Positions 508 to 7,028 of a stretch of 12,507 bases of DNA are shown piece after piece (the first letter of the stretch is position 1; each line of letters begins with the position of its first letter). The DNA is from a virus, in UHGV virus genome UHGV-0291998, one strand, 5' to 3'. Position numbers and translations under genes: made by a program. The notes beneath the pieces were generated by a model that was not told the origin of the DNA, made no database searches, and was given only the letters and a program-made list of their open reading frames with translations.

Positions 508-953
508 CGAATTTCTCCCGTGTACAGGAACAGAGTTAAAAAGCCGGAACCGGAATCAAATTACAGGATGGCCATCTGCCAGTGGCTGGTCGTAAAAAAA
601 AGGCCACGCCATGCGCAGCCGGAAATAAAGGGATAACGATGATAGTTTGAGAAAAACAGAAACAACACTTTTGTGGCAAAGCATGGTGCCGGGTGCCTCC
701 CGGTGAATTCAGTATCAGCACCTGAATCCGCGATTATCCCATATACCTGGTTGCTGATCGCCCCTCCGCACAGGGGGATTCACCATGCCAGTTTCTTTTA
801 ACAAACTCCCCGCAAACCAGACAACAGTCAACCGCCTGAATTGTGAGGTATTTAAAAATTTCAACGGGTAACTGATACCCTGCTAATCGCCTGATGCTTT
901 CTTTTTCAGCAACGGGAAAGCAACAACCACCACACCCACCAGCCGCCCATTTA

Positions 954-1759: not shown

Positions 1760-2616
1760 TATTCGCACTCACCAACCAGATTGAGAATGACCGCTGCACC
1801 GTCGTCTTCCATGCATTCACCCTTACCACTTGCCAGAAACCAGCGGCACACCTCCACGGCTTCAGCGCGTGTCACCGGTTTGATGGTTGCCAGCAATTTT
1901 TCAAGGTAGCGCTCCCGGTCATATACCGATTCGTGATGCTCAGAGTAACCAAACTCATCGCCCTGTTCTTTAGTTGCAGTGTGGCGAACACTGTAGAGCC
2001 AGTCCCAGTAAACGAACTCGCGAACAACATCAGACAGCGTATAAGGCTCAGGCAGCACATCGCGATATCCATCAACAAATGCCCGACGCTGTTCATCAAT
2101 TTCGTTCATGCGGCTGCCGCCAATGCTTCCGGCTTTTTTCTCTGCCGCAGTCCAGCCCCAGAGATGATCGTTGATAAATTTCTGGGAAGACCTGATGACC
2201 CGCTCTGCTTCCACATCTTCGAGCGCTGCTTCATAGCTACCAAACGTAGCCCTGACTGATGCCGCTTTTTTGATGTTCTCCCGGGCGTTCCTGATAACCT
2301 GCGCAGGGTTATCCATGCCGATGATGCCGAACGCAACCTGGAAAGGTTCGTAACCATTCGCCAGCAGATAACGCGAATAGCGTTCCTGAGCCTCTTTTGG
2401 GGAAATTTTAATTTTCACCAGCGCAGCCTCAGCAGCATCCAGATGTGCGGGTTCGTTCAGACGGATAACCTCCAGCACCCAAAGATAAGCATCAGTCTGC
2501 TTATGCCCGGTGATTCTCCGTTGCTCTGGCAGGGGCTTGATGTTTGCGAGGGCGGAGCTGTACGCTGCCGTCGGGATGGTGAATAGTGCTTTATGTTCGT
2601 TATTATCAGTACGCAT
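1759..2616 (-). CDS. Hypothetical protein (285 aa), between primase and Q; function unknown
   Basis: Long ORF whose start overlaps the primase stop (TAATG at 2614..2618) and whose stop overlaps the Q start. No motif I can assign by eye. Confidence 0.55.
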   Translation of the reverse strand: MRTDNNEHKALFTIPTAAYSSALANIKPLPEQRRITGHKQTDAYLWVLEVIRLNEPAHLDAAEAALVKIKISPKEAQERYSRYLLANGYEPFQVAFGIIGMDNPAQVIRNARENIKKAASVRATFGSYEAALEDVEAERVIRSSQKFINDHLWGWTAAEKKAGSIGGSRMNEIDEQRRAFVDGYRDVLPEPYTLSDVVREFVYWDWLYSVRHTATKEQGDEFGYSEHHESVYDRERYLEKLLATIKPVTRAEAVEVCRWFLASGKGECMEDDGAAVILNLVGECE

Positions 2617-3584
2617 TACGCAACCGCCTTTTTCTTATGGAAAACCAGCTCTCGAACCTGATCACCGTTCATGAGCATATTGTTGAAATCATCGTGATCC
2701 GGCCAGTACACGCTCACGCGCTGCAGGTCATTCTTTGCCATCAGATTGGCATGAGCACATTCGCAAGCCGCAGCCAGCCCGGTGGCGCTGTTCTCGTCAC
2801 GGTCGGCAAAAATAATCAGGTGCAGAACACCAGCTGGTACGCGAAACTTTTTCATAAAGCCGCTGTTAATGGTTGCCCAGGTGTTCACGTTATAAATCTG
2901 GTGCGCTGACAGCGCTGTTTCGATGCCTTCGGCGATACCCAGAGTGCTGGCGACAGGAAACATGCGGATAGCTACAGAACGAGCGTGATCCAAATAGTTA
3001 TCTTCCTGCAGGGATTTGAGGCGCTTTGCACTGCTACCGATATCTGCTTTTTTATCACCATCAAGCAGAGTCTGGTGCAGATAGCACAACTCCCCTTTAT
3101 CGTCCGTAGCAAGTGAATAAAGAGACTGGAACACACTCCCGTTGTGTCTCTGCCTGGCATTGAACCGGATCGCCTCAGCAGGAAGACTGAATATTCCACG
3201 AGAATTAAGATACGCTGCGCCGGATGTACCACGCAGTGCCTCCAGTTTTGAAAACTTGCTCAATACCCGTTTGCGTAAGCTGGTGGCGCTGCTGGTTACC
3301 GGGATTTTAACCCGTTGGTAATCATTACCGATCAGGCGGTCTATTTCGGTACAAATCTCGTTAAATGGCTTCGCCTGTGTCAGGGTGACAAGTTTCATAC
3401 CATCGCCACTACCACATACACAGATCCACGTTCCTGCACCGTCGCGGTCGTCAATTCGGAACTTGCCACGTGCACCGCATACCGGGCATTCACCCTTGAA
3501 GTGATTTTTTCCGGTTATCGGCGGCAGACCGAAGTGCTCTAATATTTCAGGCCAGCGGCCTTTCGCTGCATCTGCTGTTTTCAT
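2616..3584 (-). CDS. DNA primase, N-terminal zinc-ribbon plus TOPRIM domain (DnaG/P4-alpha-like)
   Basis: N-terminus ...HFKGECPVCGARGKFRIDD..GAGTWICVCGSGDG is a primase Zn-ribbon pattern. IAEGIETALS (Glu) and IIFADRDEN (DxD) are TOPRIM signatures. Start codon lies 1 nt after the helicase stop. Confidence 0.8.
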   Translation of the reverse strand: MKTADAAKGRWPEILEHFGLPPITGKNHFKGECPVCGARGKFRIDDRDGAGTWICVCGSGDGMKLVTLTQAKPFNEICTEIDRLIGNDYQRVKIPVTSSATSLRKRVLSKFSKLEALRGTSGAAYLNSRGIFSLPAEAIRFNARQRHNGSVFQSLYSLATDDKGELCYLHQTLLDGDKKADIGSSAKRLKSLQEDNYLDHARSVAIRMFPVASTLGIAEGIETALSAHQIYNVNTWATINSGFMKKFRVPAGVLHLIIFADRDENSATGLAAACECAHANLMAKNDLQRVSVYWPDHDDFNNMLMNGDQVRELVFHKKKAVA

Positions 3585-3585
3585 C

Positions 3586-5244
3586 TTACTGACTCAGACT
3601 GTTTATATTTTTCTGGAGTTGGTGCTTTGCCTGCATGATGCGCCAGGCCTCACTGCCTGCCGGTATCTCACGTCGTTCATCACGTTCCTGAGATAAATCA
3701 ATCGTTGTTTGTGCGTTTTCAGTGACCTTCTGAACCCGCTGGTGGCCTTTGGCAAACCGGATCAGTTTGTGTCTGATGTAGTTATTTACCTCAGGGGTAA
3801 TTTCCATCGGAAAGTTACTCAGTCCGTCAGGCCACTCACCGAACTTTTCCCGGAAAGTGTGAGCACACCATCCGTCACTGACTGGACGCCCCAGCGAAGC
3901 ACGCTGGCGCTGATAAAATTTGATCTGACTCCACCAGGACTGTTTCTCTGCCTTCGTCGACTGATGCTGATTTTTACCCAGCTTATTAAGTTTGCGGCTA
4001 GTGTCAGTATCAACGTCTTCACCTCGCAGCGGCTTGTGTCCACATTTCGGGCAAACATAGACGCCTGCTGGCTTCATGTAGTGGCATTGAGGGCATTCAT
4101 GTGGCAGTTTTTCGGCCCGTTCCTCAACTGCCCGGCGCGCGCTTTCCTCCATGCCGTCAGACTTACCGGGAAGCTCGTCGTACTCGATTGAATCCGGATA
4201 ACCCAAACGGTGCACGGTGCCGCTGTGATCGAAGATAAGGCAGGACTCTTTACCCGGTGCGGTGCGCAGCCCACGCCCGAGAGCCTGCAACCAGCGAATT
4301 TCGCTTTTTGTTGGCCTGGCGTAGATGATGCAACGAACGTCACTATCAAAGCCGGCCACCAGAACGCCCACACTAACGATGATTTTCGTTGCACCGGTTT
4401 CAAAGCGGTGAATGATGGTCTGGCGCTCATCTACCGGAGTGTCGGCGGTCATTACCTCAGCGTTAACACCCGCCAGGTTAAACTGGATTGTCAGATAATT
4501 GGCGTGAGCTACGTTGACGCAGAAAGCGATGGTAGGTAAATCCCGACCATTCTCCAGCCAGTTCTGTACGATGTCGCCCACCAGCGTAGAGCCGCACATG
4601 ATTTCAGCCAGCTGTGTTTCGTTGTAATCGCGGCCGTACTCAAGCGAAGATGTGGTTTTAACACCTTTCAGATCCGGCTTAGTTGGCGCGTAAAATTCGT
4701 ATTTACTCAGATCGCCACGCTGGATTAACTCGCCGATGGTGGTCGGCTTAATCAGTCGGTCATAGTATTTGCCCAGGAACGGAGAAAACGGAGTACCCGA
4801 CAGGCCAATCACCTTTACGCCTTTGCCGCGCAGACGTTCGATATCCTTCAGGATGCGTTTTTTACGCAGGTGCGCTTCGTCGATAATCAGCAGATCGATA
4901 TTTTCAGGAAAAACACGACGAATAAGCGTGTCAGCGCTGGCAATCTGAATTTTCCGGTCCGGATCGTAGTTCGGGTGATCCGCCCAGATATAACCGATTT
5001 CATCTCCAGGTAAACCATACTGCACGAACCGATTAGCCGTCTGACCAATCAGGATGGTGTACGGAACACAGAACAGAACACGCATACCACGGCTGACAAA
5101 ACCAGCAACTATGAAGGCTGCCAGACCCGTTTTACCGCTACCTGTTGGCGAGTAAACCATGAAGGTGTCGTTTGCCTTCCAGTCACGGCGCAACATGTTT
5201 AACGCTCGTTCCTGTGCAAAATTCGGCGTGATCGTCAGCTCCAT
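3586..5244 (-). CDS. Superfamily-2 DEAD/DEAH-box helicase with C-terminal Cys4 zinc finger (phage replicative helicase)
   Basis: Walker A SPTGSGKT, motif II LIIDEAHL, motif III LSGTPF, motif VI QALGRGLR, plus C-terminal CPQCH...CPKCGH. GGAG RBS about 8 nt upstream of the ATG at 5244. Confidence 0.85.
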   Translation of the reverse strand: MELTITPNFAQERALNMLRRDWKANDTFMVYSPTGSGKTGLAAFIVAGFVSRGMRVLFCVPYTILIGQTANRFVQYGLPGDEIGYIWADHPNYDPDRKIQIASADTLIRRVFPENIDLLIIDEAHLRKKRILKDIERLRGKGVKVIGLSGTPFSPFLGKYYDRLIKPTTIGELIQRGDLSKYEFYAPTKPDLKGVKTTSSLEYGRDYNETQLAEIMCGSTLVGDIVQNWLENGRDLPTIAFCVNVAHANYLTIQFNLAGVNAEVMTADTPVDERQTIIHRFETGATKIIVSVGVLVAGFDSDVRCIIYARPTKSEIRWLQALGRGLRTAPGKESCLIFDHSGTVHRLGYPDSIEYDELPGKSDGMEESARRAVEERAEKLPHECPQCHYMKPAGVYVCPKCGHKPLRGEDVDTDTSRKLNKLGKNQHQSTKAEKQSWWSQIKFYQRQRASLGRPVSDGWCAHTFREKFGEWPDGLSNFPMEITPEVNNYIRHKLIRFAKGHQRVQKVTENAQTTIDLSQERDERREIPAGSEAWRIMQAKHQLQKNINSLSQ

Positions 5245-5657
5245 TGTGCAGCTCCCGTGCTGATGAGATAATAATTTTGTGATGTGGTTTTCATGGATTC
5301 CCCCTCACATGGCTGGTGGCCTCCCCAAAGGCTGCCAGCCTCCCTTCTGATTCAGCTCCTCTGAAAAATCACTCTTCCAGGAAGAACCCTTTTCGTTTCT
5401 CAGCGCCTGAGCGCTTTGTACTACCTTGCTGATACGGGCGTTTTTTTAAATTGCGCCCTTAAGACAGTGATCTACTTAACCAATGGATCTCTCCTGTTGG
5501 AAAAGACCCTATTCCTGCCCCAACACCCAATCCCCCCTTACCCCCCTTACCCTCTTCCCCATAAAAACGTACTACTTCCCTAGTACACATGAGGAGTTGG
5601 GTCAGTTGGTTGCCAACCTGAACAGGCACCTTTAAGCCTGCTTCTGTTCGGGTACCT
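5245..5657. promoter_or_regulatory. 413-bp structured non-coding region upstream of the replication operon (candidate origin / nut-terminator region)
   Basis: No convincing ORF. Imperfect 11-bp inverted repeat GGCTGGTGGCC/GGCTGCCAGCC (5311..5340), hairpin TTCGGGT/ACCCGAA (5647..5668) across the stop of the 102-aa gene, and a pyrimidine-rich tract at 5511..5560. Confidence 0.3.
5511..5560 (-). repeat. C-rich (plus) / G-rich (minus) tract with tandem CCCCCCTTA repeat; G-quadruplex-type motif on the minus strand
   Basis: Plus strand ...ctgccccaacacccaatCCCCCCTTACCCCCCTTACCCTCTTCCCC. The minus strand therefore carries at least five G3+ runs separated by 1-4 nt loops (GGGG-AAGA-GGG-TAA-GGGGGG-TAA-GGGGGG). 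Confidence 0.5.
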
Positions 5658-5966
5658 TTAAACCCGAAACAGTGAGGAGCGCGATTGCGATCCAGCCAGG
5701 GGAGGTTCGGCTGTATACCCCTGTAAAGCTCTGCCCTGATTTCTTACAAACAGGCGGAGCCTTGTGTTTGCTTCGTGCCTTGCTCTGTTCTCCTTGCGGA
5801 ATGAAACAGGCTCAGCGTCAAAAGTGATTTCGTATACCTCCGCATATTTCAGGGCAACCTTCCGTCTCAGTGACGGAGGCAGCCCCTGTAACTGCTGCTG
5901 AATCCACTCTTCGTCTGCCTGGCAGTACCTAGATGGCATCTCTGTCTGAACGTAATTCTGGGACAT
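5658..5966 (-). CDS. Hypothetical protein (102 aa) downstream of cro (cII-like position); function unknown
   Basis: Track ORF MSQNYVQTEMPSRYCQADEEWIQQQLQGLPPSLRRKVALKYAEVYEITF... AAGGG-type RBS 5 nt upstream of the ATG. Overlaps the 3-prime end of the cro-like gene by about 38 nt. Confidence 0.5.
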   Translation of the reverse strand: MSQNYVQTEMPSRYCQADEEWIQQQLQGLPPSLRRKVALKYAEVYEITFDAEPVSFRKENRARHEANTRLRLFVRNQGRALQGYTAEPPLAGSQSRSSLFRV

Positions 5967-6216
5967 ACAAGCCCTTCACCTCCCCCGTGCGCGCTAAGCT
6001 TGGATGTGGAAAAAGCTCTGGTAGGTCTGGCCGAAATTCATACGCTTGGATCTTTCCGTCGACAGCTGCAACCAATAACGGCACAAATTCTGGTGAAATC
6101 TTGTTCTTGCAGTTCAACCAATCGCAGACTGTTGACTGGGCCTTTCCGCATCGCTTGGCTAAGGCTTGCTGACTTCCAAGAATCTCAATAGCTTTCTCTA
6201 TGGCTTTATGTTTCAT
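5929..6216 (-). CDS. Cro-like HTH regulator of the YdaS family
   Basis: The internal start MKHKAIEKAIEILGSQQALAKRCGKAQSTVCDWLNCKNKISPEFVPLLVAAVDGKIQAYEFRPDL has an AGGAG RBS 8 nt upstream and parallels E. coli Rac YdaS as recalled. The track start at 6267 lacks an RBS and would run into the operator. Confidence 0.7.
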   Translation of the reverse strand: MKHKAIEKAIEILGSQQALAKRCGKAQSTVCDWLNCKNKISPEFVPLLVAAVDGKIQAYEFRPDLPELFPHPSLARTGEVKGLYVPELRSDRDAI

Positions 6217-6335: not shown

Positions 6336-7028
6336 ATGACATTTTCAGAACGACTTGATTTAGCTATGCGCAACGCAAAATTTACGCAAGGTAGGCTGGC
6401 CAAAGAAGTGGGTATGGCTCAGTCCAGTGTTAATCAACTACTTAACAAAGCCAACGGTTCCAGAAAAACAGTCGAAATAGCAAAAGTTTTGGGCGTTAAC
6501 CCGGAATGGCTCGCATCGGGTGTTGGCCCAATGGAAATCGTGACCTCTGCAGACTCACACCAAATACGTAACATTTCTGAAGATTGGGTTACTGATTCGT
6601 ATGTCGTGGATGTTTTAGACATCAGATATAGTTGCGGACCTGGTAGTTATAACTCTGATTTTCCTGATATTGTCAGATCTATAGCGATAGAACCAGGATA
6701 CGCATCAAGAGTTTTTGGCGGCAGACCAGCATCAGCAATCAAAGCAATAAACGCCCACGGCGACAGTATGAAAGGCACAATAGACCCTGAAGACTTGGTA
6801 TTTGTAGATGTATCAGTTCGCACATTTAATGGTGATGGTATATACGCCTTTACATACTCTGGAACATCGCACATCAAAAGACTTCAAAAAATCAAAGATA
6901 CTCTAACGGTGATATCTGACAACCCAGCTTACAAGGATTGGGCTATCGAACCGGAAGACTTCGAACAACTTCACATTGACGGAAAAGTAATTGTCAGTTG
7001 GCCTATGACACTACACCGTTTTGCATAA
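6336..7028 (+). CDS. CI-type prophage repressor (XRE HTH + LexA-like S24 peptidase domain)
   Basis: N-terminal HTH ...QGRLAKEVGMAQSSVNQLLNKANGSRKTVEIAKVLGVNPEWL and C-terminal S24 core with Ser in AHGDSMKGTI and Lys in SHIKRLQKI. GGGAGG RBS 9 nt upstream. Divergent from the cro-like gene. Confidence 0.9.
   Translation: MTFSERLDLAMRNAKFTQGRLAKEVGMAQSSVNQLLNKANGSRKTVEIAKVLGVNPEWLASGVGPMEIVTSADSHQIRNISEDWVTDSYVVDVLDIRYSCGPGSYNSDFPDIVRSIAIEPGYASRVFGGRPASAIKAINAHGDSMKGTIDPEDLVFVDVSVRTFNGDGIYAFTYSGTSHIKRLQKIKDTLTVISDNPAYKDWAIEPEDFEQLHIDGKVIVSWPMTLHRFA

What the first reader, a model, noticed from the sequence alone, without database searches (positions are those of the whole stretch)
5511..5560. 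G-quadruplex-capable G-run tract (minus strand) with tandem CCCCCCTTA repeats in the replication-operon leader
Plus strand CCCCAACACCCAATCCCCCCTTACCCCCCTTACCCTCTTCCCC gives, on the minus (operon-sense) strand, five or more runs of three to six Gs separated by 1-4 nt loops, the canonical intramolecular G4 pattern. Such tracts are rare in enterobacterial sequence. It lies about 270-310 nt upstream of the helicase start, where an origin, a nut-like RNA element or a transcriptional attenuator could reside.
Basis: seen in the sequence. Interest (0 to 1): 0.5.

Follow-up and report, generated by a model that had tools for sequence, protein, structure and literature searches.

The report
Conserved twin G-run before phage helicase
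A G-rich stretch just upstream of a prophage's helicase-primase replication genes is real and strongly conserved across enterobacterial phages, including Shiga-toxin phages from major outbreaks; its invariant core of two long G runs has the same form as the mitochondrial element that turns transcripts into replication primers, but its function has not been tested.

Summary
On the + strand, 5518-5560 holds six C runs. These are G runs on the operon-sense strand, with 3-4 nt loops. It is the only canonical G4 motif in the window (G4Hunter 2.4; 3 of 1000 shuffles reach that).

The tract lies in a 413-nt untranslated gap between a 102-aa gene of unknown function ("p102") and an SF2 helicase-Toprim primase pair. 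That pair is related to the "Eru1" replication unit of Stx2a phages.

The four-run G4 motif is not what is conserved (45 of 77 leaders have it). The conserved part is a twin G run, G4-9/N1-3/G4-8, here G6-TAA-G6 at 5532-5546. It is present in 90 of 91 leaders collected through p102, always on the sense strand, even where the flanks cannot be aligned. G-run positions show no substitutions, while loop positions do. Run lengths slip, so the tract is not coding.

It is one module of an undescribed cis-acting leader. The other modules are covarying hairpins, a GATC box about 52 nt downstream, an A run and palindromes.

My best guess (about 0.35) is a transcription-coupled RNA:DNA hybrid or hybrid-G4 element at an origin, like mitochondrial CSB II or ColE1. 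The main rival (about 0.3) is an RNA-level leader element. Neither has been tested experimentally.

The parts
5532..5546 (-). Twin G run, G6-TAA-G6: the invariant core of the element
   Evidence: A pair of G runs of at least 4, separated by 1-3 nt, is present on the sense strand in 90 of 91 p102-anchored leaders (72 unique). Run 1 is 4-9 long and run 2 is 4-8. Loops are TAA, TTT, A, TA, AAA, TT or AA. There are no substitutions at G-run positions.
5518..5560 (-). Full G-rich tract: six G runs, a canonical G4 motif, and the strongest predicted RNA:DNA-hybrid-favouring stretch of the window
   Evidence: G4Hunter 2.4; shuffles; predicted G4 of -15.4 kcal/mol in isolation; hybrid minus duplex ddG of -19 kcal/mol, z = -5.0.
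5550..5560 (-). Purine motif GGGGAAGAGGG, conserved upstream of the twin run. In this clade it is also the 3' arm of a long hairpin
   Evidence: A GGRAGAGG-like motif lies within 45 nt upstream of the twin run in 65 of 73 unique leaders. Pairing with 5589-5601 is predicted.
5589..5601 (-). Pyrimidine-rich 5' arm (CCCAACUCCUCAU) of the long hairpin that encloses palindrome A
   Evidence: RNAfold predicts the equivalent helix in each clade-1 leader type although the arm sequences differ. The helix is absent in clade 2.
5569..5586 (-). Palindrome A (GTACTA-N6-TAGTAC), the tip of the long hairpin, followed by U5 in this leader type only
   Evidence: It is swapped together with palindrome B for a TAGACGTC-type pair in other leader types.
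5620..5669 (-). Two tandem hairpins with the identical 8-nt loop UUAAAGGU, starting at the stop codon of the 102-aa gene
   Evidence: Across 35 distinct copies the loop is invariant and the stems covary: 91.4% of cells are paired against about 42% when the partner is slid, and 55 double-change cells against 14.7 in shuffles. Many G-U pairs are present.
5467..5486 (-). Conserved GATC box (CCATTGGTTAAGTAGATCAC) at a fixed distance from the twin run
   Evidence: TTARNTAGRT lies 47-63 nt (median 52) after the twin run in 63 of 73 unique leaders. At least one GATC lies within 140 nt in 73 of 73.
5418..5458 (-). Small hairpin with an A7 run (5436-5458) and palindrome B (5418-5435)
   Evidence: An A run and a second palindrome occupy this position in every leader type that was read.
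5658..5966 (-). 102-aa gene ('p102', phrog_852, function unknown), almost always linked to the leader
   Evidence: It carries the conserved motif EPVSFRKENRARHEANTRLRLFV. The AlphaFold model has low confidence.
3586..5244 (-). SF2 DEAD/DEAH helicase (Eru1A-like), the first gene downstream of the leader
   Evidence: best NCBIfam resemblance is to RadD, far below its cut-off. It is 66% identical to the P13374/TL-2011c-type helicase.
2616..3584 (-). Zn-ribbon/Toprim primase (Eru1B-like)
5235..5294 (-). 19-codon upstream ORF (MKTTSQNYYLISTGAAQWS) with a strong SD. Its stop overlaps the helicase ATG
   Evidence: Read. It is conserved in alignment A1 and in Fels-1 and phi467.

Best explanation
The tract is the core of an undescribed cis-acting module. 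The module sits between a small conserved gene (p102) and the helicase-primase genes of an Eru1-like phage replication unit.

Proposed mechanism, all of it inferred: after induction, transcription from the PR-like promoter reads through the leader. The G-rich nascent RNA (GGGGAAGAGGG...G6-UAA-G6) stays annealed to the C-rich template behind the polymerase. The displaced G-rich non-template strand, alone or together with the RNA, folds into a G-quadruplex. This would be a persistent R-loop or 'hybrid G4'. It would open the duplex next to the GATC box and A run. It would then provide a primer or a structure-specific entry site for the phage's SF2 helicase and Toprim primase.

On this reading it would act as the origin-activating or priming element of a replication module that has no recognisable initiator or iterons. 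The analogues are mitochondrial CSB II and the rG-run:dC-run persistent hybrid of ColE1 RNA II.

What is shown: the sequence, its position, its orientation, and its conservation pattern. What is inferred: R-loop or G4 formation and any role in replication.
For: 1. Selection acts on the G runs themselves.
- 90 of 91 p102-anchored leaders keep a twin G run on the sense strand, and none has a twin C run. This holds even where the rest of the leader cannot be aligned and p102 is only about 50% identical.
- In a set of sequences collected without reference to the tract, there are 0 substitutions at 26 G-run positions, 13 at 17 loop positions and 78 at 24 upstream positions.
- Loop sequence is free (TAA, TTT, A, AA, TT) and run lengths drift between 4 and 9. 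This fits a structural requirement rather than a sequence-specific one, and it excludes coding.

2. The orientation is the one that favours R-loops. The G-rich strand is both the non-template strand and the RNA of the cro-p102-helicase operon. A nearest-neighbour hybrid-minus-duplex calculation makes it the most hybrid-favouring 41 nt of the window on either strand (-19 kcal/mol, z = -5.0).

3. Two G runs are enough for an RNA:DNA hybrid G4 but not for an intramolecular one. The exact 15-mer CCCCCCTTACCCCCC is the published core of gecko and frog mitochondrial CSB-2. CSB II is the documented site of G4-dependent primer formation and a hybrid-G4-stabilised R-loop (PMC3488243).

4. Context.
- The tract lies directly upstream of a helicase-primase module for which no origin or initiator has been described (Eru1; PMC8044961 and PMC8951638).
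- No iterons were found in the leader.
- In marine relatives of the helicase, the same slot holds a winged-helix 'replication protein' gene. In the Vibrio phage, iteron-like repeats lie upstream of that gene.
- The distance to a GATC-containing box is fixed at 47-63 nt, and an A run follows.

5. The helicase resembles structure-specific SF2 enzymes (RadD, RecG, PriA) at weak, sub-threshold scores, not DnaB.

6. With a G4-aware energy model, the displaced single-stranded DNA is predicted to prefer a G4 (-47.4 against -34.7 kcal/mol).
Against: - There are no experimental data of any kind. The origin of this phage group is unmapped and could lie elsewhere.
- The 100 nt downstream are only 29% G, below what R-loop predictors usually require for extension.
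- In the RNA, the 5' third of the tract is predicted to be locked in a hairpin, and the G4-aware RNA minimum-energy fold has no G4.
- Neighbouring elements are clearly sense-strand RNA structures, which fits a purely RNA-level role equally well.
- One natural variant (L242) has lost the tract but keeps the helicase. Its viability is unknown.
- E. coli RNase HI and Rho normally remove R-loops.
- The match to CSB-2 is a 15-mer of low complexity and may be coincidence.
- The nearest-neighbour parameters were recalled from memory, and the result follows largely from the GG content.
Confidence: 0.35

Rival explanations
1. RNA-level leader element. The G-rich stretch acts in the operon-sense transcript and not through DNA. 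It could be a binding platform (for p102's Arg-rich motif, a host protein, or the 30S subunit through its UAAGGGGGG Shine-Dalgarno mimics). It could also be part of a fold that controls processing, stability, read-through or translation of the downstream replication genes.
For: - The adjacent features are sense-strand RNA structures. The hairpins with the invariant loop UUAAAGGU covary strongly and use G-U pairs.
- In clade 1 the purine tract forms the 3' arm of a long hairpin. Its arms differ between types but remain complementary, and sense-strand pairing is stronger than antisense (Wilcoxon p = 0.0008).
- The leader folds better than shuffles (z = -4.2).
- The tract lies between genes of one operon, where such control is common.
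- An upstream ORF coupled to the helicase start (5235-5294) shows that helicase expression is tuned at the RNA level.
Against: - The twin run has no conserved complementary partner.
- The enclosing hairpin is absent in clade 2, where the twin run persists.
- No conserved terminator follows the tract. The U5 is specific to this leader type.
- There is no Rfam match.
- The antisense strand also folds better than shuffles (z = -5.9), so the overall fold statistic does not point to one strand.
- RNA folding is also part of ColE1-type primer function, so this evidence does not separate the two models.
Confidence: 0.3
2. Duplex- or single-strand-DNA recognition site. The G runs would be bound by a phage protein (helicase, primase, the 285-aa protein or p102) or a host protein, as part of an origin or an operator-like site. 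No R-loop or G4 would be involved.
For: - Conservation is strict, the distance to the GATC box is fixed, and palindromes flank the tract.
- The position is next to the replication genes.
Against: - Loop sequence, loop length and run length all vary freely, which is unusual for a sequence-specific site.
- The flanking palindromes swap type while cI, cro, p102, helicase (99%), primase (99%) and the 285-aa protein (93%) stay nearly the same. No co-varying partner protein is therefore evident.
Confidence: 0.12
3. Antisense function. The C-rich, G-poor + strand would be a Rho-utilisation site or insulator. It would stop leftward (antisense) transcripts from running into p102, cro and the immunity region.
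For: - The + strand is 43 nt of C-rich, almost G-free sequence, which is ideal rut composition.
- In the antisense RNA the G-U pairs of the hairpin become C-A mismatches, leaving the C-rich arm exposed.
Against: - No promoter-like site was found on the + strand between 5000 and 6500.
- rut sites do not need long homopolymer runs, or two of them with a short spacer. The strict conservation of the G runs is therefore unexplained.
Confidence: 0.08
4. No dedicated function. The tract would be a slippage-prone homopolymer pair carried along with a conserved leader, or a contingency tract that merely tunes spacing.
For: - Run lengths do vary between close relatives: 9 of 36 distinct versions differ.
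- One relative (L242) lacks the tract.
Against: - The tract persists where the flanks are not alignable, and only on one strand.
- There are no substitutions in the runs, while loops and flanks change.
Confidence: 0.05
5. Coding: the 56-codon ORF 5459-5629 (-) would encode a glycine-rich peptide.
For: An ORF exists in the window. The G runs would encode Gly and Lys.
Against: - Run-length changes of +1, +2 and +5 nt, an in-frame stop in phage Fostie, and two separate 1-nt insertions in YP3 all break the frame.
- There is no Pfam or PHROG match.
Confidence: 0.01

Closest known systems
[quoted passage not shown]
   Same: - Two long G runs are separated by 1-3 nt. The gecko and frog CSB-2 core CCCCCCTTACCCCCC is identical to window 5532-5546.
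[quoted passage not shown]
- The element lies just upstream of where replication functions act.
- In mitochondria it gives G4-dependent transcript termination, primer formation and a hybrid-G4-stabilised R-loop (PMC3488243).
   Different: - The polymerase and replisome differ: E. coli RNAP with an SF2 helicase and Toprim primase, against POLRMT, Twinkle and Pol gamma.
- There are no CSB I or CSB III counterparts.
- No termination or primer ends have been mapped here.
- The resemblance is almost certainly convergent, and it is a lead, not a test.
ColE1-type plasmid origin (RNA II pre-primer and persistent hybrid)
   Same: - A structured transcript of several hundred nt is made from an upstream promoter.
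- A G run in the RNA and a C run in the template stabilise a persistent hybrid that becomes the primer. This is established knowledge (Masukata and Tomizawa 1990), recalled and not re-read here.
- No plasmid-encoded initiator is needed.
   Different: - ColE1 uses RNase H, Pol I and host primosome assembly, whereas this phage brings its own helicase and primase.
- The transcript here is an mRNA leader inside an operon.
- No antisense RNA I-like regulator was found.
Phage T4 oriF/oriG R-loop origins and E. coli constitutive stable DNA replication (oriK, PriA-dependent)
   Same: A transcript retained as an R-loop gives the replicative helicase access without an initiator protein. PriA- and RecG-class SF2 enzymes recognise such structures (established knowledge).
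   Different: Those sites are not defined by twin G runs. The similarity of this helicase to RadD, RecG and PriA is weak and below family cut-offs.
Lambda nutR/tR1 and HK022 put sites (leader RNA elements of early operons)
   Same: They are cis-acting RNA hairpins in the early-right transcript of temperate phages. The hairpins at 5620-5669, with an invariant loop and covarying stems, resemble boxB in principle.
   Different: - The G tract itself has no counterpart in nut or put.
- No conserved boxA was seen by eye across the leader types.
- The Eru1 Stx phages are reported to lack an N homologue (PMC8044961).
- The position is after the second gene of the operon, not directly after the promoter or cro.
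Transcription-induced G-loops on G-rich plasmids in E. coli (Duquette et al. 2004; recalled, not re-read)
   Same: When the non-template strand is G-rich and is transcribed in E. coli, an RNA:DNA hybrid forms together with G4 on the displaced strand.
   Different: Those were mammalian switch or telomeric inserts hundreds of nt long. Here the G-rich core is 43 nt, and the downstream region is only 29% G.

Membership tests
Canonical intramolecular G-quadruplex motif (G3+ N1-7, four runs) | At least four runs of at least 3 G with loops of 1-7 nt on one strand | tested here: met
   The window has six runs at 5518-5560 (-) and G4Hunter 2.4.
Canonical intramolecular G-quadruplex motif (G3+ N1-7, four runs) | If the G4 is the selected feature, the four-run pattern should be kept in homologous elements | tested here: not met
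   Only 45 of 77 p102-anchored leaders satisfy it. phi467- and Fels-1-type leaders have G4-A-G5 inside a GA-rich tract.
Canonical intramolecular G-quadruplex motif (G3+ N1-7, four runs) | Actual folding into a G4 (CD, ThT/NMM, K+ dependence) | not testable with these tools
   Only an energy-model prediction is available: -15.4 kcal/mol in isolation, favoured in ssDNA, not favoured in the RNA leader.
CSB II-type twin-G-run hybrid-G4 / R-loop primer element | Two long G runs separated by a very short spacer | tested here: met
   The window has G6-TAA-G6 at 5532-5546. The feature is present in 90 of 91 homologous leaders. The 15-mer is identical to published CSB-2 cores.
CSB II-type twin-G-run hybrid-G4 / R-loop primer element | The G-rich strand is the non-template strand, so the nascent RNA is G-rich | tested here: met
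   The flanking genes are on the same strand. A PR-like promoter lies at 6267-6239 (-), and no intervening terminator-like site was found. Transcription itself was not observed.
CSB II-type twin-G-run hybrid-G4 / R-loop primer element | Located at a mapped replication origin, with RNA 3' ends or RNA-DNA junctions just downstream | not testable with these tools
   No origin is described for this phage group, and no transcript-end data are available.
CSB II-type twin-G-run hybrid-G4 / R-loop primer element | A persistent RNase H-sensitive hybrid forms on transcription | not testable with these tools
   Only a nearest-neighbour estimate is available: the most hybrid-favouring 41 nt of the window.
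ColE1 RNA II-type pre-primer | A structured transcript from a promoter several hundred nt upstream, with an rG run pairing to a dC run in the template | tested here: inconclusive
   The promoter-like site lies about 680 nt upstream. The leader is structured and G runs are present. Nothing shows that the RNA is used as a primer.
Iteron-type origin (lambda ori, P4 ori/crr, plasmid iterons) | Three or more direct repeats of an initiator site next to an AT-rich region, plus an initiator protein | tested here: not met
   Only two-copy families were found in 5200-5700. No O- or Rep-like protein was identified. The two palindromes do not co-vary with any replication protein.
Lambda-type nut site | A conserved boxA, a boxB hairpin and a cognate N protein | tested here: not met
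   Hairpins with a conserved loop exist at 5620-5669, outside the tract. By eye, a boxA-like CGCTCCT is not conserved across the leader types. The Eru1 Stx phages are reported to lack N (PMC8044961). The leftward operon of this prophage was not searched for an N homologue.
Intrinsic terminator / attenuator | A GC-rich hairpin followed directly by a U run, conserved among relatives | tested here: not met
   The scan reports no terminator-like site on the minus strand within the leader. The weak GUACUA-N6-UAGUAC hairpin plus U5 at 5563-5586 lacks the U run in phi467, Fels-1 and other types.
Rho-utilisation site on the antisense transcript | A C-rich, G-poor unstructured RNA downstream of an active promoter | tested here: inconclusive
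   The composition requirement is met on the + strand. No + strand promoter-like site lies between 5000 and 6500.
Small protein-coding gene | The reading frame is conserved among homologues | tested here: not met
   Indels are not multiples of 3, and Fostie has an in-frame stop.
Described RNA family (Rfam 15) | A covariance-model match | tested here: not met
   No match at gathering score. Only chance-level hits (E > 0.2) were found in the window and phi467 leaders.

The most novel reading that the evidence does not exclude
The twin G run would be the heart of an initiator-less, transcription-primed replication origin for the Eru1-type helicase-primase module of enterobacterial temperate phages. 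These include the Stx2a phages of the O104:H4 (2011) and O103:H25 (2006) outbreak strains. On this reading, PR transcription through G6-N3-G6 leaves an RNA:DNA hybrid or hybrid G-quadruplex, a bacterial-virus counterpart of mitochondrial CSB II. That structure primes DNA synthesis or loads the phage SF2 helicase, and so links derepression directly to replication.
Probability: 0.3. Interest if true: 0.85.

Novelty: new variant of a known kind. Interest (0 to 1): 0.6.

Why it matters
The replication unit downstream of this leader belongs to the family named Eru1. Eru1 is carried by Stx2a phages of highly virulent EHEC, and its origin and initiation mechanism are unknown (PMC8044961, PMC8951638). 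A homologous leader, with G5-TAA-G5 and the same GATC box, is present in 98 sequenced phages. These include TL-2011c, P13374 and 62 Stx2a-converting phages.

If the twin G run marks the origin or controls expression of the replication genes, it gives a defined 15-nt target. With it one could test how these phages start replication, a step that determines toxin gene dosage.

It would also be a natural bacterial example of a two-run, hybrid-G4/R-loop element. Such elements are so far documented mainly for mitochondrial DNA.

Even if the mechanism proposed here is wrong, the roughly 250-nt leader is a strongly constrained and undescribed cis-acting module. It comprises the hairpins with an invariant loop, the long hairpin, the twin G run, the GATC box and the palindromes.

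Tried and rejected
- **Coding for a Gly-rich peptide:** rejected. The frame is not conserved.
- **Known RNA family:** none found.
- **Iterons or direct repeats in the leader:** none beyond two-copy matches.
- **Palindromes A and B as specificity sites of a replication or immunity protein:** rejected. GTAC-type and TAGACGTC-type pairs occur with nearly identical cI, cro, p102, helicase, primase and 285-aa protein. What they are remains open.
- **Long hairpin as the universal reason for the purine tract:** rejected. Its outer helix is absent in the divergent clade, which still keeps the twin run. A global MAFFT plus alifold of all types failed to capture the helix, so covariation there rests on per-type folds and arm-swap energies only.
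- **p102 function:** no Pfam or NCBIfam family. All homologues are annotated 'hypothetical'. The AlphaFold model was too poor (pLDDT 59.8) to justify a fold search.
- **Literature:** no paper in the library links G-quadruplexes to lambdoid or Eru-type phage replication. The exact 15-mer appears only in two mitochondrial genome papers.
- **Plasmid carriage as a test of autonomous replication:** the one small 'plasmid' hit is a whole circular phage genome, so it is uninformative.
- **L122:** an almost identical G tract in an unrelated plasmid- or ICE-like contig could not be interpreted.
- **Antisense promoter or -10-like readings of the GATC box:** inspected by eye, and nothing convincing was found.
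Full report
**1. What is in the window**

The window is an E. coli lambdoid-type prophage, 99.8% identical to a region of strain E110019. The minus strand carries the early-right operon, in this order:
- a PR-like promoter (6267-6239);
- a YdaS-family Cro-like gene (5929-6216);
- a 102-aa gene of unknown function, called p102 here (5658-5966; phrog_852);
- a 413-nt gap (5245-5657);
- an SF2 DEAD/DEAH helicase (3586-5244);
- a Zn-ribbon/Toprim primase (2616-3584);
- a 285-aa protein;
- Q.

The S24-type repressor is on the + strand (6336-7028).

**2. The observation**

In operon sense, 5560 to 5518 reads GGGG-AAGA-GGG-TAA-GGGGGG-TAA-GGGGGG-ATT-GGG-TGTT-GGGG. It is the only canonical G4 motif in the window and has the highest G4Hunter score, 2.4.

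A minimal four-run motif is not very improbable in 12.5 kb: 95 of 1000 dinucleotide shuffles contain one. A tract of this strength is improbable: 3 of 1000 shuffles reach 2.4.

**3. Conservation**

Megablast finds the same leader in phages of Escherichia (Fostie), Yersinia (YP3) and Cronobacter (ENT39118), and in 42 of 5426 complete E. coli genomes. Exact-anchor scans find it in nine further species genomes and in more than 130 viral contigs. It almost always lies between a p102 homologue and the helicase.

Those scans were anchored on the tract or on its flank, so I collected two further sets through the p102 protein alone. Of the 91 leaders long enough to read:
- 90 carry a pair of G runs of at least 4, separated by 1-3 nt, on the sense strand; none carries the complementary pattern;
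- among 72 unique leaders, run 1 is 4-9 long (48 have 6) and run 2 is 4-8 (45 have 6);
- the spacer is TAA (47), A (9), TTT (6), TA (3), AAA (3), TT (2) or AA (1).

The twin run persists in a clade whose p102 is only about 50% identical and whose leader is otherwise not alignable. It also persists in Serratia phage OS31, Klebsiella phage ST11-VIM1phi8.3 and the Stx2a phage P13374.

Only 45 of 77 leaders keep a canonical four-run motif. Fels-1 and phi467 have GAGAGGAGGGGAGGGGGAGGAG at the homologous position. The selected feature is therefore two long G runs close together, usually preceded by a GGGAAGAGG-like purine motif. It is not an intramolecular G4 pattern.

Within the window's own leader type, using only sequences collected through the downstream flank:
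- there are no substitutions at 26 G-run positions, 13 at 17 loop positions and 78 at 24 upstream positions;
- 9 of 36 distinct versions differ in run length.

This pattern excludes coding, as do an in-frame stop in Fostie and two separate 1-nt insertions in YP3.

**4. The element around the tract**

Reading representatives of each leader type side by side shows a common plan.

(a) One or two hairpins directly follow p102. Their 8-nt loop UUAAAGGU is invariant and their stems covary. Across 35 distinct copies, 91.4% of cells are paired against about 42% when the partner is slid. There are 55 double-change cells against 14.7 in shuffles, and many G-U pairs. In the window these lie at 5620-5669.

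(b) A palindrome follows (5569-5586). In clade 1 it forms the tip of a long imperfect hairpin. The 5' arm of that hairpin is pyrimidine-rich and its 3' arm is the first part of the purine tract. The arms differ between types but remain complementary, and they pair better in sense than in antisense. The outer helix is missing in clade 2.

(c) The twin G run.

(d) A box, CATWGSTTARNTAGATCWC, lies 47-63 nt further on (median 52) in 63 of 73 unique leaders. At least one GATC follows within 140 nt in all 73.

(e) A small hairpin with an A run.

(f) A second palindrome of the same type as the first (5418-5435).

(g) Depending on type, there is then a 122-127-aa gene, a NUMOD4/HNH gene, or neither.

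(h) In the window's type, a helicase-proximal hairpin is followed by a 19-codon upstream ORF whose stop overlaps the helicase ATG (5235-5294).

The two palindromes change type together (GTAC-type against TAGACGTC-type). They do so while cI, cro, p102, helicase (99%), primase (99%) and the 285-aa protein (93%) stay nearly the same. I could not assign them a partner protein.

No Rfam family matches the leader.

**5. Link to known phages**

The helicase is 66% identical to that of P13374, phi191, ArgO145 and many Stx2a-converting phages. Llarena et al. named this replication unit Eru1: eru1A is an SF2 helicase and eru1B a Toprim protein. Eru1 is carried by the O104:H4 and O103:H25 outbreak strains (PMC8044961).

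That paper and its follow-up (PMC8951638) describe no origin, iterons or non-coding elements. They note that Eru1 phages lack N, CII and CIII homologues.

P13374 has a p102 homologue (ORF34). Its leader carries GGGGGTAAGGGGG and the box ACATAGGTTAGGTAGATCAC. A member of the 122-aa family (ORF35) follows, and then the helicase. That leader is present at 92.7-100% identity in 98 phage records, including TL-2011c.

In marine relatives of the helicase (Vibrio 1.233.A at 58% identity, Pseudoalteromonas HS1 at 56%), the slot upstream of the helicase holds a 'replication protein' gene. That annotation, with InterPro IPR011991, applies to the Vibrio phage. In HS1 the equivalent ORF was only read by eye. 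In the Vibrio phage, iteron-like repeats lie upstream of this gene, and there is no twin run.

**6. How it most likely works**

Three facts guide the choice.
- The constraint is on G runs as such. Loops and run lengths are free, which points to a structural role and away from a sequence-specific one.
- Two runs are too few for an intramolecular G4. They are exactly what a bimolecular or RNA:DNA hybrid G4 needs, and what stabilises an rG:dC hybrid.
- The G-rich strand is the non-template strand of an operon that is switched on at induction, and the tract lies directly before replication genes that have no known initiator or origin.

The closest precedent is mitochondrial CSB II. [quoted passage not shown] The exact 15-mer CCCCCCTTACCCCCC is printed as the CSB-2 core of geckos and, within longer C runs, of a frog.

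A second precedent is ColE1 RNA II, where a G run in a structured pre-primer anchors a persistent hybrid. This is established knowledge, recalled and not re-read here.

Two further estimates point the same way. A nearest-neighbour calculation makes 5507-5547 the most hybrid-favouring 41 nt of the window on either strand. The parameters were recalled from Sugimoto 1995 and SantaLucia 1998, and the result follows largely from the GG content. A G4-aware fold predicts a G4 in the displaced single-stranded DNA but not in the RNA leader.

I therefore rank first, at about 0.35, a transcription-coupled hybrid or hybrid-G4 element that activates or primes an origin in this leader. Every step beyond sequence, position, orientation and conservation is inference.

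**7. Rivals**

An RNA-level role in the leader (about 0.3) is nearly as likely. This could be a binding platform, or control of processing, stability or translation. The neighbouring hairpins are clearly sense-strand RNA structures, part of the tract is paired in clade 1, and the helicase has a coupled upstream ORF. However, the twin run has no conserved pairing partner and no conserved terminator follows it.

The remaining rivals rank lower: a protein-binding DNA site (0.12), an antisense rut or insulator (0.08; no + strand promoter-like site), no dedicated function (0.05) and coding (0.01).

**8. Evidence against the leading model**

- The downstream G content is only 29%.
- One relative, L242, has a deletion that fuses p102 to the core and removes the tract while keeping the helicase. 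Its viability is unknown.
- There are no experimental data.

**9. Verdict**

I rate it a new variant of a known kind, namely transcription- or R-loop-linked origin or leader elements. Interest is moderately high for three reasons: the depth of conservation, the parallel with CSB II, and the presence of the element in Eru1 Stx phages whose initiation mechanism is an open question.

Noticed in passing
window 5620-5669 (-): Two tandem hairpins start at the stop codon of the 102-aa gene. They share the identical 8-nt loop UUAAAGGU but have different stems. Across 35 distinct copies from related phages the loop is invariant and the stems covary strongly, with many G-U pairs. This looks like a protein- or RNA-recognition hairpin of the sense transcript, boxB-like in principle. 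No partner is known.
   Followed up: yes
window 5569-5586 and 5418-5435: Two 18-bp palindromes (GTACTA-N6-TAGTAC and GTATCA-N6-TAGTAC) lie 151 bp apart and bracket the G tract and the GATC box. In other leader types both are replaced together by TAGACGTC-type palindromes, although cI, cro, p102, helicase, primase and the 285-aa protein stay nearly identical. The partner or purpose is unexplained.
   Followed up: partly
window 5467-5486 (-): The conserved box CCATTGGTTAAGTAGATCAC (consensus CATWGSTTARNTAGATCWC) contains a Dam site. It lies 47-63 nt after the twin G run in most leader types, and a second GATC is usually nearby.
   Followed up: partly
window 5235-5294 (-): A 19-codon upstream ORF (MKTTSQNYYLISTGAAQWS) has a strong GAGGGGG Shine-Dalgarno sequence. 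Its TGA overlaps the helicase ATG (caATGgagcTGA). It is conserved in Fostie, YP3, ENT39118, Fels-1 and phi467. It is probably a translational coupling device for the helicase.
   Followed up: partly
window 5350-5400; L149 3157-3525; L232 6036-6638: Other leader types carry a 122-127-aa gene between palindrome B and the helicase. It has an ...IDCLV...AIEVDKK... motif that looks PD-(D/E)XK-like by eye; NCBIfam gave no hit and Pfam was not run on it. Alternatively they carry a NUMOD4/HNH endonuclease gene. The window has neither, but keeps TTCTTCCTGGAAGAGTGATT. This matches the start of the 122-aa gene and may be a remnant or a separate conserved palindrome.
   Followed up: partly
window 5658-5966 (-): The 102-aa protein has an invariant Arg-rich stretch (EPVSFRKENRARHEANTRLRLFV) and no family assignment. 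All database homologues are annotated 'hypothetical'. In Serratia phage OS31 it follows a separate CII-like gene, so it is not simply the CII analogue. The AlphaFold model shows three helices at low confidence (pLDDT 59.8).
   Followed up: partly
L242 (IMGVR_UViG_2634166491_000002), about 2740-3912: This is a natural variant in which a deletion fuses the p102 reading frame to the leader core. The twin G run is gone, a 331-aa gene is inserted, and the helicase is retained. It would be a ready-made test case if the prophage is inducible.
   Followed up: partly
L122 1330-1400 (IMGVR_UViG_2820089333_000004): A nearly identical tract (ATGGGGAAAGGGGGGGTAGGGGGGGATTGGGG) occurs in an unrelated, plasmid- or ICE-like context. 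It lies about 200 nt downstream of a near-consensus promoter, is followed by a terminator-like hairpin, and has toxin-antitoxin-like ORFs (by eye) nearby. I could not tell whether it is a coincidence or an analogous element.
   Followed up: partly
L249 2440-2570 (Vibrio phage 1.233.A): Upstream of a winged-helix 'replication protein' gene that precedes the helicase homologue there are iteron- or operator-like repeats: ACGACAGAACCTGTCGC twice and ACGACAGAGGTTGTC once. This shows what occupies the equivalent slot in marine relatives.
   Followed up: no
window 645-817 (-): Rfam match to the sRNA STnc100 (108 bits against a gathering score of 47), downstream of the Q region.
   Followed up: no
L253 (NZ_CP083847.1, Enterobacter asburiae p16773_5): A 42.9-kb circular 'plasmid' record is a complete HK97-like temperate phage genome carrying this p102-leader module. 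Its leader is 90% identical to the window's. It is presumably an excised or episomal phage.
   Followed up: partly
window 5311-5340 (-): A conserved hairpin (GGCUGGCAGCCU-UUGGGG-AGGCCACCAGCC) lies just before the upstream ORF. It travels with the helicase even in phages whose distal leader differs (Fels-1, phi467). Its CCUUU is complementary to the AAAGG of the UUAAAGGU loops. Any long-range contact between them is speculation.
   Followed up: no
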